Shown piece after piece: positions 1 to 5,261 of a stretch of 28,729 nt of DNA (the first letter of the stretch is position 1; each line of letters opens with the position of its first letter). The DNA is from Candidatus Saccharimonadales bacterium (GTDB taxonomy: Bacteria > Patescibacteriota > Saccharimonadia > Saccharimonadales > JBDTJP01): contig JBDTJP010000081.1 of assembly GCA_039935755.1 (NCBI GenBank), positions 1 to 28,729 on the forward strand, read 5' to 3'. The notes below the pieces were generated by a model. It saw only the letters and a program-made list of their open reading frames with translations, made no database searches and was not told the origin of the DNA. The translations under genes were made by a program, and so were the position numbers.

Positions 1-1050
1 GATAGCGCAAGTACATCTACCAATGTAGATATTACTGCTCAGACAGGTATCGCGTCGGCCGATATTGATAGTAAAATCGTTCCAGGTTACGTAAAGACTA
101 TCAAAAAGACTGATACCGAAAAGGTGGTTGCAACCGGACAACGCGATGACGGCACTAAGGCAACCGGTAAACTAACCCTACAAGTCACTGACTGTGCTCA
201 ATCTCAAGTAACCGTACCTGCCGGAACGACCGTATCAGCAAATGGCCTTAATTTTATCACTCAGTCCGATGTAACGCTTGAGACTATACGGATAGGGAAC
301 AAATGTAGGAATAGCGATTTCCCTGACGTATCCTCGGGTACTGTTAGCATGACTGCCAGCAGCGCGGGTGATAAGTACAATTTGGCTGCCCAGACATATG
401 CCGTTGCCGGTTTTTCTAATGTTACAAGCAAGGGCAGCGATACTACTGGTGGAACTAGTAAAATTACCCAGATTGTTAGCCAGACAGATGTCGATAATGC
501 CAAACAAAAGATACTGGACAGGCTTAACGCTGCTGCCACCTCCGACTTTAAGTCACAATTTTCTGCGGATAACATTACTGCCCTAACAGATACACTAAGT
601 TCCGATGAGCCAGCTGTAGCTAGCACTCCTAACGTAAACGACCCCGGCAGTGAAGTAACGGTATCGTTAAGCGCTAACTTTAGCCAAATGGGCGTTAAAT
701 TAGATGATCTAAAGAAGATTGTCGAAGTTGAAGCTAAAAAGAGCATCGATACCAGCAAGCAAGCAATATCTGACTATGGACTTGCCAATGCAGTTTTCCG
801 GGTTAGCAATAAATCAGCAACTAGTGCCAGTTTTAATCTACAAACCTTGGTTAAAACCGGTCCACAACTTGATGCAAATAATTTAAAAAAGGAAATTGCC
901 GGTAAAAAGAGGGGTGAGATAATCAGCAGCCTAGAGTCGAGGCCCGGTATTACTAATGTCGAGGTTAAGTACAGCCCGTTTTGGGTCCACTCAACACCTA
1001 AGAATATCAAGCACATTACCATAATATTTGATAAGCCCAATGAGAAGTAA
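1..1050 (+). CDS. Baseplate J/gp47-like domain protein, 5' truncated by the window edge
   Basis: Frame 1 is open from base 1 (DSASTSTNVDITAQ...) into the listed 124..1050 ORF. The segment ATGKLTL...TVPAGTTVSANGLNFITQSDVTL...MTASSAGDKYN resembles the baseplate-J pattern (GT-x-V...F-x-T...A-x-x-x-G-x-x-x-N). Family call is from recall, not a search. Confidence 0.65.
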   Translation, partial: DSASTSTNVDITAQTGIASADIDSKIVPGYVKTIKKTDTEKVVATGQRDDGTKATGKLTLQVTDCAQSQVTVPAGTTVSANGLNFITQSDVTLETIRIGNKCRNSDFPDVSSGTVSMTASSAGDKYNLAAQTYAVAGFSNVTSKGSDTTGGTSKITQIVSQTDVDNAKQKILDRLNAAATSDFKSQFSADNITALTDTLSSDEPAVASTPNVNDPGSEVTVSLSANFSQMGVKLDDLKKIVEVEAKKSIDTSKQAISDYGLANAVFRVSNKSATSASFNLQTLVKTGPQLDANNLKKEIAGKKRGEIISSLESRPGITNVEVKYSPFWVHSTPKNIKHITIIFDKPNEK

Positions 1051-1462: not shown

Positions 1463-2537
1463 GCATGATTTGCGCCTAAAAAGGCATAAACACGGCGCAG
1501 CCAAGCTGTGGCTGATTGTGGTAGCTGTTCTAATGTTATTTTTAGTGTCATCGGTCATCGTGATTCGAAACGTATACAACCGGAACTTGAAGCCGATTAG
1601 TTCATCGCAAAAGATTGTAATAGTAACAATTCCCAGCGGTGCCTCGGTAAGTCAAATAAGCAAGAAGCTACAAGATCAAGGAGTAATTAGGGCTTCATGG
1701 GCTTTTGAATGGTATGTACGCAACAAGAACTTCCGTGAGTCGCTGCAAGCTGGTACGTACAGCCTACGTCAAAATCAATCGGTGGCCGAAATCGTATCTA
1801 TATTAACTAATGGCAAAGTCGCAACAAATCTGCTAACTATACTGCCAGGGCAGCGGCTTGATCAGATCAAGAAGACATTTGTTAACTCCGGGTATTCGGT
1901 GGCCGAGGTTGATAAGGCGTTTGATCCGGCTTTATACGCAAACCACCCGGCACTAGTAGACAAGCCAGCTGGTGCAAGCCTAGAAGGTTATTTGTACCCG
2001 GATTCCTTCCAGAAGATATCTGAGACTGCTCCGGAGACGATTATTCGTGCTTCACTAGACGAAATGCAAAAGGCGCTCACCCCTGATGTCAGAGCCGGGA
2101 TTTTCAAGCAGGGGATTAGTTTGCAAGATGGAATAACTTTGGCGTCGATTGTGGAACAGGAAGTCAGCAATCCAAATGATAAGCCAACCGTAGCACAAGT
2201 GTTTTATAAACGACTTAGCATGGGCATGCCACTGGCATCTGATGTAACAGCCATTTACGGAGCGATAGTAGATGGCGTAAGCCTACCCGACAACCCTGCA
2301 CAGTACGCCGCCAAAGCCATAGCGTTTGATTCACCATACAATACGTATATACACGCTGGCTTGCCTCCTGGGCCCATAAGCAACGTATCTGTGGCATCCC
2401 TTAAGGCAGTGGCACACCCATCACCTACTGATTATCTGTATTTTGTAGCTGGCGACGATGGTATAACCCACTTTTCCCGTACATTCGAAGAGCACCAGGC
2501 GCTTATTAACCAACATTGTAAAAAGAACTGTGGCTGA
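1440..2537 (+). CDS. mltG: Endolytic transglycosylase MltG (YceG family)
   Basis: N-terminal TM segment, LEGYLYPDSF, ASIVEQE (catalytic Glu region), SPYNTY...GLPPGPISN, YLYFVA. An alternative in-frame start is GTG at 1455. Confidence 0.95.
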   Translation: MRLIIVNKHDLRLKRHKHGAAKLWLIVVAVLMLFLVSSVIVIRNVYNRNLKPISSSQKIVIVTIPSGASVSQISKKLQDQGVIRASWAFEWYVRNKNFRESLQAGTYSLRQNQSVAEIVSILTNGKVATNLLTILPGQRLDQIKKTFVNSGYSVAEVDKAFDPALYANHPALVDKPAGASLEGYLYPDSFQKISETAPETIIRASLDEMQKALTPDVRAGIFKQGISLQDGITLASIVEQEVSNPNDKPTVAQVFYKRLSMGMPLASDVTAIYGAIVDGVSLPDNPAQYAAKAIAFDSPYNTYIHAGLPPGPISNVSVASLKAVAHPSPTDYLYFVAGDDGITHFSRTFEEHQALINQHCKKNCG

Positions 2538-2572
2538 ATATCTCTTAACAGGGGTGGGCAGAACTTAGGTAC

Positions 2573-2601
2573 TTGCTATTGCTTGCTGACTTTGCTATAT
2601 T
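2573..2601 (+). promoter_or_regulatory. Sigma70-type promoter for the LysM/CHAP gene: TTGCTA-N17-TATATT with extended TG
   Basis: TTGCTA at 2573-2578, TG at 2593-2594, TATATT at 2596-2601. Implies a 5' UTR of about 185 nt. Confidence 0.6.
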
Positions 2602-2629
2602 AAATCTCGTAGTTATTTTGCTATAACCT

Positions 2630-2763
2630 CAGGTACTAACCTGTTAAGTATGGTAAAGAGCTACCCTGTTATTGTTTTCCAATATAAGTAGGGCGGTCGA
2701 ACTCCCTACATCATAAATTAAGACCCAATAACAGCGTTTCGTGTCGATTTCACAAGACACACG
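2630..2763 (+). ncRNA. Structured cis-regulatory leader RNA, candidate lysM-TM7-like motif
   Basis: Stems seen directly: CAGGT/ACCTG (2630-2634/2639-2643), GGTA/TACC (2652-2655/2662-2665), CTGTTATTG/CAATAACAG (2666-2674/2726-2734) enclosing GTAGGG/CCCTAC (2688-2693/2704-2709), and GTGTC/GACAC (2741-2745/2756-2760). Lies upstream of a LysM gene. Confidence 0.55.
2726..2737 (+). repeat. CAATAACAGCGT, copy 1 of a 12-nt direct repeat flanking the LysM/CHAP gene
   Basis: Exact match to 3935-3946. Confidence 0.85.
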
Positions 2764-2793
2764 GAGTAAATAATTCGTAGTCAAACATCTGTA

Positions 2794-3924
2794 GTGAGCC
2801 GAAAACTCACTACTCGAAGTAAAACAACCAGTAATGTTAGACGCCGTACAAAGCGTGTTTTCTTGCGTAGCCGGAAAAAGCTTATACGTTTGGCTTTAGT
2901 ATCCAGCAACTTGGCACTACTAGTTGGTGTTTTAGTTTTTGTTACTAGGGCTCCTAGTTCAGGCCAAGTTTCACTCCAGAGTGTAGTATCGAACAGCCAT
3001 GAGTCTAGCGAAGTTACTGGTCCAATGGATCAAGTATCGTCAGCTGATATCGCAGTTGATGTGGCCCGTACAATTGGTCTACCAGAATCTAACTCCGTAA
3101 CAAACCATGCCGACTCAGTGAATCTAGCTGTTGTTAGCACATCAGCCGATACCAGCGTTGTATCTAAACCACAGGTTATAGCCAGCGCATTACCAACCAA
3201 GAAAGACATACGTACCTACACTACCGCAGCCGGCGACACCATCAGTTCTATCGCCGCTAAAATGGGTGTTACATCCGACAGTATTCGCTGGAGTAACAGC
3301 ATTACAGGATCTAGAGACACTATTGCCGTCGGCAAACAGCTGATGATACCTCCAGCTGGCACAAGTGGGATTGTTTATGTCGTTAAAGCTGGTGATACAC
3401 CCGATAGCCTAGCCGCTAAATTCAACAGTAGCAAAGCCTCGATAGTCACCTTTAATGATGCAGAAATTGATGGCATAACTACAGGTGAGTCGATTCTTAT
3501 ACCGGACGGCTCTATTCAGGCTCCTGCCCAGACTACATCAGCTTACAGTTACTACGCATCCTCGTCATCTAGCCAGGGCTTTGCCTGGGGTGGCAGCTCA
3601 GCTATCTATGGACGCAATGGCTATGATTACGGCTACTGTACATGGTATGTGGCTAACCGTATAAATATGCCCGCTAACTGGGGTAATGCCGATACTTGGC
3701 CGCGTGGAGCAAGGGCTAGTGGCTGGACGGTATCAAACACTCCTCGCAAGGGCGCAATTGCCTGGGGAGCTCCTATACGCATGCACGTAGCGTACGTAGA
3801 GGACGTGTCGGCCGATGGTAGCATGGTTAAGTACTCAGATATGAATAACTTGGCTGGTTGGGGCCGACGCGGAGACAGTGATTGGGTCCCTGCTAGTTAC
3901 TTCCCAGGCTACATCTACCAGTAG
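2794..3924 (+). CDS. Membrane-anchored peptidoglycan hydrolase with two LysM domains and a C-terminal CHAP domain
   Basis: N-terminal hydrophobic helix. LysM repeats YTTAAGDTISSIAAKMGVT and YVVKAGDTPDSLAAKFNSS. CHAP catalytic motifs GYCTWYV (Cys) and HVAYVE (His). GTG start. Confidence 0.9.
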   Translation: MSRKLTTRSKTTSNVRRRTKRVFLRSRKKLIRLALVSSNLALLVGVLVFVTRAPSSGQVSLQSVVSNSHESSEVTGPMDQVSSADIAVDVARTIGLPESNSVTNHADSVNLAVVSTSADTSVVSKPQVIASALPTKKDIRTYTTAAGDTISSIAAKMGVTSDSIRWSNSITGSRDTIAVGKQLMIPPAGTSGIVYVVKAGDTPDSLAAKFNSSKASIVTFNDAEIDGITTGESILIPDGSIQAPAQTTSAYSYYASSSSSQGFAWGGSSAIYGRNGYDYGYCTWYVANRINMPANWGNADTWPRGARASGWTVSNTPRKGAIAWGAPIRMHVAYVEDVSADGSMVKYSDMNNLAGWGRRGDSDWVPASYFPGYIYQ

Positions 3925-3934
3925 AGTGTCGTCA

Positions 3935-3946
3935 CAATAACAGCGT
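3935..3946 (+). repeat. CAATAACAGCGT, copy 2 of the 12-nt direct repeat, 11 nt after the LysM/CHAP stop
   Basis: Exact match to 2726-2737. Confidence 0.85.
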
Positions 3947-3973
3947 GTCTATAGTGCTCATTCGTACTACCTC

Positions 3974-3982
3974 TGTTATAAT
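3974..3982 (+). promoter_or_regulatory. Extended -10 (TGTTATAAT) 7 nt upstream of the obg ATG, leaderless-type promoter
   Basis: TATAAT at 3977-3982, ATG at 3990, no SD in between. Confidence 0.65.
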
Positions 3983-3986
3983 CTGA

Positions 3987-5261
<1,275 letters not shown>

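What the first reader, a model, noticed from the sequence alone, without database searches (positions are those of the whole stretch)
2608..2793. Multi-hairpin 5' leader upstream of the LysM/CHAP hydrolase, a candidate riboswitch or cis-regulatory RNA
Seen: a well-spaced promoter (2573-2601) gives a ~185-nt leader containing five stems: 5 bp, 4 bp, a perfect 9-bp helix enclosing a 6-bp helix, and a 5-bp helix with an alternative register (CGTGT 2740-2744 with ACACG 2759-2763). Known: a lysM-TM7 RNA motif of unknown ligand has been described upstream of LysM genes in Saccharibacteria, and c-di-AMP riboswitches control wall hydrolases in other phyla. I could not see c-di-AMP consensus elements here. 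Inference: a regulatory RNA controlling autolysin expression.
Basis: partly seen in the sequence, partly recalled or inferred. Interest (0 to 1): 0.7.

Follow-up and report, generated by a model that had tools for sequence, protein, structure and literature searches.

The report
Uncatalogued lysM-TM7-like leader, AUU start
The stretch in front of this soil Saccharibacteria cell-wall hydrolase gene is a real, evolutionarily conserved folded RNA leader, an uncatalogued structural variant of the orphan "lysM-TM7" motif, and it ends at a strong ribosome-binding site followed by a conserved rare AUU start codon; what it senses is still unknown.

Summary
Window 2607-2772 is a structured 5' leader with four helices (P1-P4). 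A covariance model built only from seven other families finds it at 67 bits. In 54 distinct orthologous leaders, 91% of cells pair and all 31 pairs show compensatory changes, against 33-46% pairing in slid controls.

Rfam release 15 finds nothing here: no ydaO/c-di-AMP match, and none to lysM-TM7 (RF03005) even at E<=10.

- **Resemblance to lysM-TM7:** same orthologous gene, same order, a GGUCGA apical loop, an AAGA junction, and a hairpin abutting GGAG.
- **Spread:** my model hits 61 of 151 sampled Saccharimonadales genomes, once each. RF03005 hits 12. The two sets do not overlap.
- **Start codon:** the leader is about 165 nt, not 185. The gene starts at AUU 2773 (SD GGAG 2763-2766; in-frame stop 2767-2769), not GTG 2794. 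ATT/ATC is conserved in 70 of 80 loci.
- **Upstream box:** a conserved DNA box, TTAACAGGGGTGG (2545-2557), lies upstream of the promoter.
- **Not found:** no terminator, and no Shine-Dalgarno occlusion beyond the genome background.

The ligand and mechanism remain unknown. Earlier agents in this scan reached the same reading on other Saccharibacteria genomes.

Verdict: a new variant of a known orphan motif, of moderate interest.

The parts
2545..2557 (+). Conserved DNA box TTAACAGGGGTGG, about 17 nt upstream of the -35 element. It is probably an operator or activator site and is not part of the transcript made from the predicted promoter.
   Evidence: The ACAGRGG core is present upstream of the promoter in 46 of 55 class loci, and also upstream of RF03005-type loci. 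The PWM consensus equals the window sequence. In G000, 6 of 7 AACAGGGGT sites are intergenic.
2573..2601 (+). Sigma-70-type promoter: -35 TTGCTA (2573-2578), 17-nt spacer, extended -10 TGcTATATT (2593-2601). The predicted TSS is around 2607-2609.
   Evidence: Found by the consensus scan. Its position relative to P1 is conserved in 51 of 55 orthologous leaders. The TSS is not mapped, and no RNA run was listed.
2609..2664 (+). P1 domain, a 5'-terminal long hairpin. The basal helix is 2609-2614 with 2659-2664 and 2616-2618 with 2655-2657. The apical sub-hairpin is CAGGU 2630-2634 with ACCUG 2639-2643.
   Evidence: Seen in the MFE fold and the model alignment. The basal helix is 94% paired, and all 7 pairs show compensatory changes in 54 sequences.
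2666..2734 (+). P2-P3 domain.
- P2: CUGUUAUUG 2666-2674 with CAAUAACAG 2726-2734.
- P3: 2688-2693 with 2704-2709, plus G2695-U2703 and G2696-C2702.
- Apical loop UCGAA 2697-2701, within the conserved GGUCGAAC.
- 3' junction 2710-2725, ending in the conserved AAGACC 2720-2725.
   Evidence: Model alignment. P2 is 92.8% paired with 9 of 9 pairs compensatory, and P3 is 91% paired with 6 of 6. Conserved unpaired nucleotides are listed. A DNA search found this core in two other families.
2741..2760 (+). P4 hairpin, GUGUC 2741-2745 with GACAC 2756-2760, ending 2 nt before the Shine-Dalgarno sequence.
   Evidence: Seen in the MFE fold. The homologous helix is 94% paired with 4 of 4 pairs compensatory and a free sequence. 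The model mis-registers this helix in the window row itself. No U-run follows, so it is not an intrinsic terminator.
2763..2766 (+). Shine-Dalgarno sequence GGAG.
   Evidence: Conserved in at least 90% of 54 sequences. It lies 6 nt before AUU; the spacing is 5-8 nt in 70 of 80 loci.
2773..3924 (+). LysM + CHAP membrane-anchored peptidoglycan hydrolase gene, starting at AUU 2773. This is 7 codons upstream of the GTG 2794 that ORF callers pick. The block AUUCGUA 2773-2779 is at least 90% conserved.
   Evidence: - Pfam finds LysM and CHAP domains.
- TAA 2767-2769 is in frame, so no start further upstream is possible.
- ATT is the start in 54 of 55 class members.
- There is no in-frame stop for 50 codons.
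- The third codon position is the most variable from codon 5 onwards.
- The next canonical start lies 3-46 codons away and is not conserved.

Best explanation
Window 2607-2772 is the transcribed 5' untranslated leader of the LysM/CHAP hydrolase mRNA of a soil Saccharimonadales bacterium.

**Shown.**
- It folds into a conserved four-helix architecture. P1 is a long hairpin right at the predicted 5' end. P2 encloses P3, whose apical loop carries the conserved GGUCGA. An A-rich 3' junction ends in AAGAYC. P4 is a hairpin of free sequence that abuts the ribosome-binding site.
- The helices are maintained by compensatory changes across many families of the order.
- There is one copy per genome, always in front of the orthologous gene.
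- Translation starts at a conserved AUU, 5-7 nt after a conserved GGAG.

**Inferred.**
- The element is a diverged structural variant of the orphan lysM-TM7 motif.
- It acts in cis on expression of the hydrolase. The most likely level is translation initiation, or mRNA stability, because it has no terminator.
- The P2-P3 junction domain is the sensing or binding module. P4-SD-AUU is a constant output platform.
- The AUU codon keeps basal translation low and makes it dependent on start-codon discrimination (IF3), as in infC.
- The 5'-terminal P1 hairpin probably protects the mRNA end.

The signal, whether metabolite or protein, is unknown. A separate DNA box upstream of the promoter probably adds transcriptional control.
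For: **Not chance.** z = -3.87 against shuffles.

**Independent detection.** Model R1 was built from seven leaders of other families, without the window. It hits window 2607-2779 at 67 bits, E about 6e-14.

**Covariation.**
- 29 sequences: 93% of cells paired, and 29 of 31 pairs have changes on both sides.
- 54 distinct sequences: 91.4% paired, 31 of 31 pairs compensatory, and 543 double-change cells against 154 +/- 14 in shuffles.
- Slid controls give 33-46% pairing.

**Strand.** Abundant G-U pairs, for example 30 of 54 at the inner P3 pair, fit the gene's strand only.

**Distribution.** R2 hits 61 of 151 order genomes. Each has one hit, directly upstream of the P0001 orthologue.

**Promoter.** Its position is conserved.

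**AUU start.**

**Link to lysM-TM7.**
- The Rfam consensus carries GGUCGA, an AAGA-containing junction and a hairpin followed by GGAG.
- RF03005 gives sub-threshold full-length alignments at exactly this position in two class members.
- Loci that RF03005 hits significantly (two above the gathering score, ten below it) lie upstream of the same gene, with GGAG followed by ATT or ATC.

**No terminator.**
Against: - No transcript data: no RNA run was listed, so the TSS and the leader's existence as RNA rest on comparative evidence.
- RF03005 does not score the window at all.
- My R2 model does not significantly hit RF03005 loci; the best is 19 bits, E 0.075. Homology of the two classes is therefore argued from position and shared signatures, not shown statistically.
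- No expression platform is evident. Predicted SD accessibility is 0.30, the same as for 45 control genes of the genome at 0.35.
- Several close class members lack the GGUCGA loop (L018, L021), and some families keep only P1 plus the SD and start codon (ATT or ATC), with P4 short or absent (L014, L022). A strictly required ligand pocket in P3 is therefore doubtful.
- The model-fitted alignments lean towards the structure.
Confidence: 0.62

Rival explanations
1. The leader is a metabolite-binding riboswitch. The P2-P3 junction, with the GGUCGA loop and the AAGAYC junction strand, forms an aptamer for a cell-wall-related or host-derived small molecule, and ligand binding changes initiation at the AUU codon. 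This is a sharper version of the best explanation.
For: - The stems covary while the conserved nucleotides sit in loops and junctions.
- There is one copy per genome, upstream of one gene family.
- Weinberg et al. 2017 (PMC5737381) list lysM-TM7 among likely cis-regulatory motifs upstream of genes that c-di-AMP riboswitches control elsewhere.
Against: - Few unpaired positions are at least 90% conserved.
- The GGUCGA loop is lost in close relatives.
- The middle domain is replaced or absent in other families of the order.
- No alternative pairing that hides the SD was found.
- The authors saw no c-di-AMP binding for these motifs.
Confidence: 0.3
2. The leader is a protein-binding or purely structural element with no small-molecule sensing. 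P1 protects the 5' end from exonucleases. P2-P4 set mRNA half-life or bind a regulatory protein. The AUU codon simply holds synthesis of a dangerous autolysin low.
For: - P1 begins within a few nucleotides of the predicted TSS in nearly all loci.
- The invariant parts across all leader classes are P1, the SD and an AUU or AUC start codon. P4 is present in most classes but not in the minimal one, and the middle domain varies.
- No SD occlusion beyond background was found.
Against: A stabiliser alone does not explain the conserved GGUCGA loop and AAGAYC junction across dozens of families. It also does not explain the synonymous-site conservation of AUUCGUA.
Confidence: 0.3
3. The conservation reflects DNA-level control only: the region consists of operator sites for a transcription factor, and the RNA folds are incidental.
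For: - The TTAACAGGGGT box is conserved upstream of the promoter in 46 of 55 loci.
- It recurs inside the transcribed region at +16 to +45 in 21 of 55 leaders, in either orientation. Either-orientation use is typical of DNA sites.
- In G000, 6 of 7 copies are intergenic.
Against: - Operators do not produce compensatory base-pair changes in four helices whose sequences are otherwise free.
- The window's own leader has no significant second box yet keeps all the helices.
- G-U pairs are strand-specific.
Confidence: 0.05
4. The hairpins are chance structures in an AT-rich intergenic region.
For: Short stems are common in AT-rich spacers. Only one promoter-like site was found, against 1.5 expected.
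Against: - z = -3.87.
- Detection by an independent model at E about 6e-14.
- 31 of 31 pairs covary.
Confidence: 0.01

Closest known systems
lysM-TM7 RNA motif (Rfam RF03005; Weinberg et al. 2017, Nucleic Acids Res 45:10811, PMC5737381)
   Same: - It is a 5' leader of the orthologous LysM-domain hydrolase gene in Saccharibacteria.
- An outer helix encloses a hairpin whose loop carries GGUCGA.
- An AAGA-containing 3' junction strand is present.
- A sequence-variable hairpin ends 1-3 nt before GGAG.
- GGAG is followed by an ATT or ATC start.
- It is an orphan motif with no known ligand.
   Different: - The Rfam model gives no hit in the window at E<=10 or in the whole genome.
- Class members reach at most 20.5 bits against a gathering score of 61.5.
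- Here the GGUCGA sits in a tight 5-nt apical loop instead of a loop of about 40 nt.
- The second small hairpin of RF03005 is absent.
- A long 5'-terminal P1 domain is part of the conserved unit.
- The two models hit disjoint sets of genomes: 61 against 12 of 151.
c-di-AMP riboswitch (ydaO/yuaA, Rfam RF00379)
   Same: It works in the same kind of place, the leaders of cell-wall hydrolase genes (LysM, NlpC/P60, Rpf) in other phyla.
   Different: - No match even at E<=10.
- There is no pseudo-twofold architecture.
- Weinberg et al. report no c-di-AMP binding for the lysM motifs.
AUU-initiated, IF3-discriminated genes (infC, pcnB of E. coli; established knowledge)
   Same: A strong SD is followed by a conserved AUU initiation codon, so output should depend on start-codon discrimination.
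   Different: The gene family is different (an autolysin). The AUU is preceded by a large conserved structured leader. IF3 dependence was not tested here.

Membership tests
lysM-TM7 (RF03005) | Score at or above Rfam's gathering threshold (61.5 bits) with the family covariance model | tested here: not met
   - No hit at the gathering threshold.
- No hit at E<=10 on 2450-2950.
- No hit in G000 at E<=0.01.
lysM-TM7 (RF03005) | Located in the 5' UTR of a lysM-domain gene in Saccharibacteria (TM7) | tested here: met
   - Pfam finds LysM and CHAP in the downstream gene.
- Relatives are titled Candidatus Saccharibacteria or Saccharimonadales.
- Of the 12 RF03005 matches at E<=0.01, nine run into GGAG followed, 5-9 nt on, by ATTCGTA, ATTAGTA or ATCAGTA, the words that open the orthologue where frame was checked; L024, L028 and L029 differ, and frame and orthology of these 12 loci were not checked.
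lysM-TM7 (RF03005) | Conserved GGUCGA in the loop of the hairpin enclosed by the outer helix | tested here: met
   GGUCGAAC lies at 2695-2702 within P3. The Rfam consensus is shown.
lysM-TM7 (RF03005) | Second small hairpin between the GGUCGA hairpin and the AAGA junction strand | tested here: not met
   The window has an unpaired 16-nt junction at 2710-2725 instead. The class consensus has none.
lysM-TM7 (RF03005) | 3' hairpin immediately followed by GGAG | tested here: met
   P4 at 2741-2760 is followed by GGAG at 2763-2766. The homologous helix covaries.
c-di-AMP riboswitch (RF00379) | Match to the family covariance model | tested here: not met
   cmscan of all 4227 Rfam families returned nothing at E<=10.
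   The window scores 67 bits with R1, which was built without it. It scores 96 bits with R2. Covariation is shown.
Intrinsic-terminator attenuator | GC-rich hairpin followed by a U-run before the start codon | tested here: not met
   No terminator-like site was found in 2300-3100. P4 is followed by GGAG.

The most novel reading that the evidence does not exclude
The LysM/CHAP leader of Saccharimonadales may be a modular riboregulator. The constant frame is a 5' hairpin, an SD and an AUU start. Into it fit at least three interchangeable middle domains: the window type found here, the Rfam lysM-TM7 type, and a third type with AAACGUC...AGAGUA. There are also minimal versions.

On this reading, all of them sense the same unknown cell-wall or host-derived signal. 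They gate translation of the main autolysin from an IF3-discriminated AUU codon, which would link wall hydrolysis to growth state in these epibiotic bacteria.
Probability: 0.2. Interest if true: 0.8.

Novelty: new variant of a known kind. Interest (0 to 1): 0.5.

Why it matters
**The family is wider than catalogued.** lysM-TM7 is an orphan candidate riboswitch with no known function. In Rfam it looks rare: above threshold in 2 of 151 sampled Saccharimonadales genomes and significant in 12. The window type described here is in 61 of the same 151 and is invisible to the Rfam model. The leader family is therefore much wider and more variable than catalogued, which gives far more sequences for ligand hunting and structure work.

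**The annotation is wrong at the start.** The conserved AUU start means that ORF callers set the start too far downstream (GTG 2794 in this window; the next canonical codon lies 3-46 codons beyond the AUU in relatives), which cuts off the true N-terminus.

**It suggests a control point.** The AUU start points to translational control through start-codon discrimination of the one LysM/CHAP hydrolase that nearly every member of the order keeps (385 of 401 genomes). That is relevant to how these ultrasmall epibionts control wall remodelling.

Tried and rejected
- **Rfam, all families, including ydaO and lysM-TM7.** No hit.
- **Intrinsic terminator.** None found.
- **SD sequestration.** The predicted unpaired probability of GGAG is 0.30 in 55 leaders against 0.35 in 45 control genes of the same genome. 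There is no special occlusion.
- **Pairing of the P3 loop CGAA with UUCG of AUUCGUA.** It is only 4 bp, and the two do not covary: RF03005-type loci combine GGUCGAC with AUUAGUA, and L077 does the same. Rejected.
- **Pseudoknot GGUC (loop) with GAYC (junction).** Most of the class has GAAC, which mismatches. Not supported.
- **Bridging to RF03005 with my own models.** Only weak cross-hits: R1 on L027 at E 0.025, and R2 on L035 at E 0.075.
- **Leader words repeated after the stop codon (CAATAACAGCGT at 2726 and 3935).** The repeat is real in this window. It is not conserved: the mean longest shared word is 7.1 against 7.0 for controls over 72 loci.
- **RNA-seq support.** No RNA run was listed, only soil DNA metagenomes.
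- **Genome-wide enrichment of ACAGRGGT.** 41 were found against about 32 expected by hand, so there is no clear excess at that length. The 9-mer AACAGGGGT is mostly intergenic.
- **Literature.** Nothing was found on this variant or on an AUU start in Saccharibacteria.

Full report
**Context.** The window is contig C81 of a 627-kb, 68%-complete genome. Relatives found through the downstream protein are all titled Candidatus Saccharibacteria or Saccharimonadales. The only runs that hold the sequence are soil metagenomes. The gene order is ruvX (1028-1462), yceG/mltG (1440-2537), a 235-nt spacer, a LysM+CHAP protein with an N-terminal membrane anchor, then obg (3990-5261).

**Observation.** The promoter TTGCTA-17-TATATT at 2573-2601, with a TG extension, is there.
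- a 9-bp helix, 2666-2674 with 2726-2734;
- the enclosed 6-bp helix, 2688-2693 with 2704-2709;
- a 5-bp helix, 2741-2745 with 2756-2760, plus its alternative register.

The fold of 2608-2800 is more stable than every one of 200 dinucleotide shuffles (-48.4 kcal/mol, z = -3.87).

**Rfam.** No family reaches its gathering score anywhere in the window. None reaches E<=10 on 2450-2950. This excludes the c-di-AMP (ydaO) riboswitch and also membership of lysM-TM7 by Rfam's own criterion.

**Orthologous leaders.** A DNA search of one genome per family of the order found the 47-nt core 2688-2734 in two other families, again between yceG and the LysM/CHAP orthologue. The protein is nearly universal in the order: 385 of 401 sampled genomes at E<=1e-20. 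That tally includes four genomes flagged as unpublished (G262, G307, G340, G342), and no other claim here rests on them. I collected upstream regions from 20 genomes and 80 further loci.

**Independent model and covariation.**
- A covariance model built from seven leaders of other families (R1) does not include the window. It finds window 2607-2779 at 67 bits, E about 6e-14.
- On 29 matches, 93% of cells form standard pairs and 29 of 31 pairs carry changes on both sides.
- A second model (R2) was aligned to 54 distinct sequences. It gives 91.4% pairing, and all 31 pairs are compensatory. There are 543 double-change cells against 154 +/- 14 in column shuffles, and 33-46% pairing when the 3' partners are slid by 1-3 columns.
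- These alignments are fitted to the model, which favours the structure. The margin is large, and every helix (P1, P2, P3, P4) is supported on its own.
- Frequent G-U pairs fit only the gene's strand.

**Anatomy in the window.**
- **P1:** 2609-2614 with 2659-2664, continuing inwards.
- **P2:** 2666-2674 with 2726-2734.
- **P3:** 2688-2693 with 2704-2709, plus G2695-U2703 and G2696-C2702, closing the loop UCGAA.
- **3' junction:** 2710-2725, ending in AAGACC.
- **P4:** 2741-2745 with 2756-2760.
- **SD:** GGAG 2763-2766.
- **Start block:** AUUCGUA 2773-2779.

The most conserved unpaired positions of the class are in the P3 loop (ggUcga), the A-rich 3' junction, GGAG and AUUCGUA.

**Promoter.** Its position is conserved. 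In 51 of 55 loci a -10-like hexamer ends 3-10 nt (mode 5) before the model's first position. 43 have the TG extension, and 48 have TTG in the -35 zone. The transcript should therefore begin at the foot of P1. This is comparative evidence only, because no RNA run was listed.

**Start codon.** ATT 2773 is in frame with GTG 2794. It lies 6 nt after GGAG and directly follows an in-frame TAA at 2767-2769.
- In 70 of 80 loci an in-frame ATT (59) or ATC (11) follows GGAG by 5-8 nt. Two loci have ATA, and eight show no such signal.
- Within the class, 54 of 55 have ATT.
- None has an in-frame stop in the next 50 codons.
- From codon 5 on, the third position is the most variable. Codon 8, for example, is Leu in 39 of 55 with entropies of 1.74, 0.50 and 1.95.
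- The next canonical start lies anywhere from 3 to 46 codons downstream.

The leader is therefore about 165 nt, and the protein is 7 residues longer than the ORF call. The second codon, CGU, is conserved at its synonymous site, so AUUCGUA is also constrained as RNA.

**Relation to lysM-TM7.** Weinberg et al. 2017 described lysM-TM7 upstream of lysM genes as likely cis-regulatory. They grouped it with motifs on genes that c-di-AMP riboswitches control elsewhere, and they saw no c-di-AMP binding.

The Rfam consensus has an outer two-part helix, a hairpin with GGUCGA in its loop, a second small hairpin, an AAGA-containing junction, and a hairpin followed by GGAG.
- RF03005 aligns full-length at exactly the homologous position in two class members, but at only about 20 bits against a threshold of 61.5.
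- In 151 order genomes it is significant in 12 and above threshold in 2. Nine of those 12 matches run into GGAG and then ATTCGTA, ATTAGTA or ATCAGTA, the words that open the orthologue where frame was checked; the other three (L024, L028, L029) differ. The box is recognisable upstream of about half of them. I did not check frame or orthology for these 12 loci.
- R2 is significant in 61 of the same 151 genomes, once per genome. Wherever coordinates can be compared, the hit is directly upstream of the orthologue.
- The two hit sets are disjoint, and cross-detection is only marginal.

I read the window type as a diverged structural variant of the same leader. It has the same gene, the same order, the same signatures and the same output platform. 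It is not a member by the family's model, and it lacks the second hairpin.

Other families carry further versions. One has AAACGUC...AGAGUA in place of the GGUCGA domain. A minimal one has only P1, the SD and the start codon (ATT or ATC).

**Mechanism.** There is no terminator. The predicted accessibility of the SD (0.30) is the same as for 45 ordinary genes of this genome (0.35). Neither transcription attenuation nor simple SD masking is therefore indicated. Two candidate tertiary pairings were checked against sequence variation and dropped: loop CGAA with UUCG of the start block, and loop GGUC with junction GAYC.

What remains is inference:
- a cis-acting leader whose P2-P3 domain binds something;
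- a 5' hairpin that probably stabilises the mRNA;
- an AUU start that keeps output low and dependent on initiation fidelity.

A true metabolite riboswitch and a protein-binding or purely structural leader each get about 0.3.

**The DNA box.** TTAACAGGGGTGG (2545-2557) sits about 17 nt upstream of the -35 element.
- Its core is present in 46 of 55 class loci, and upstream of about half of the RF03005-type loci.
- It is sometimes present as 11-nt tandem copies or as palindromes.
- A second copy lies inside the transcribed P1 region in 21 of 55 leaders, in either orientation. Either-orientation use points to recognition as DNA.
- In this genome, 6 of 7 AACAGGGGT copies are intergenic, several of them within promoters.

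The box is probably a transcription-factor site acting alongside the RNA. It does not explain the covarying helices.

**Earlier notes of this scan.** These were read after my analysis. On other Saccharibacteria genomes they reached the same reading: a divergent lysM-TM7 leader, an AUU start and a promoter box. This is a repeat find within the scan. I found nothing on it in the searched literature or in Rfam 15.

**Verdict.** This is a new variant of a known orphan motif. Interest is moderate, because function and ligand remain unknown.

Noticed in passing
window 2545-2557; also G000 contigs C4, C37, C52, C59, C85: The box TTAACAGGGGTGG is conserved upstream of the LysM/CHAP promoter across the order. 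In some genomes it appears as 11-nt tandem copies or as palindromes. In this genome 6 of 7 AACAGGGGT copies are intergenic; two lie in spacers that I read by eye as promoter spacers, one of them ahead of what looks like a tRNA gene (not checked with a tRNA finder). It looks like the site of a DNA-binding regulator with a small regulon.
   Followed up: partly
window 3926-3979: The spacer after the LysM/CHAP stop codon repeats words from the leader: GTGTCGTCACAA, CAATAACAGCGT (also at 2726-2737), ATTCGTAC (3960-3967) and CCTCTGTTAT (3970-3979). The repeat is real here but is not conserved in 71 other loci.
   Followed up: partly
window 3977-3992: The obg ATG at 3990 lies only 7 nt after a perfect TATAAT (3977-3982), with no Shine-Dalgarno sequence. 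This may be a leaderless obg mRNA.
   Followed up: no
loci L047, L051-L053, L057, L061, L063, L065, L066, L069, L070, L078, L079, L090, L100, L103 (about 60-30 nt before the ATT or ATC start): There is a different middle domain in the same leader position in other Saccharimonadales families. It has conserved AAACGUC and AGAGUA words and no GGUCGA. Other families (L014, L022, L038, L041) keep only P1, the SD and the start codon (ATT or ATC).
   Followed up: no
window 124-1050: The ORF upstream of ruvX has a weak Pfam Baseplate_J match (E 6.8e-5, 22.7 bits against a cut-off of 21.1). It overlaps ruvX by 23 nt.
   Followed up: no
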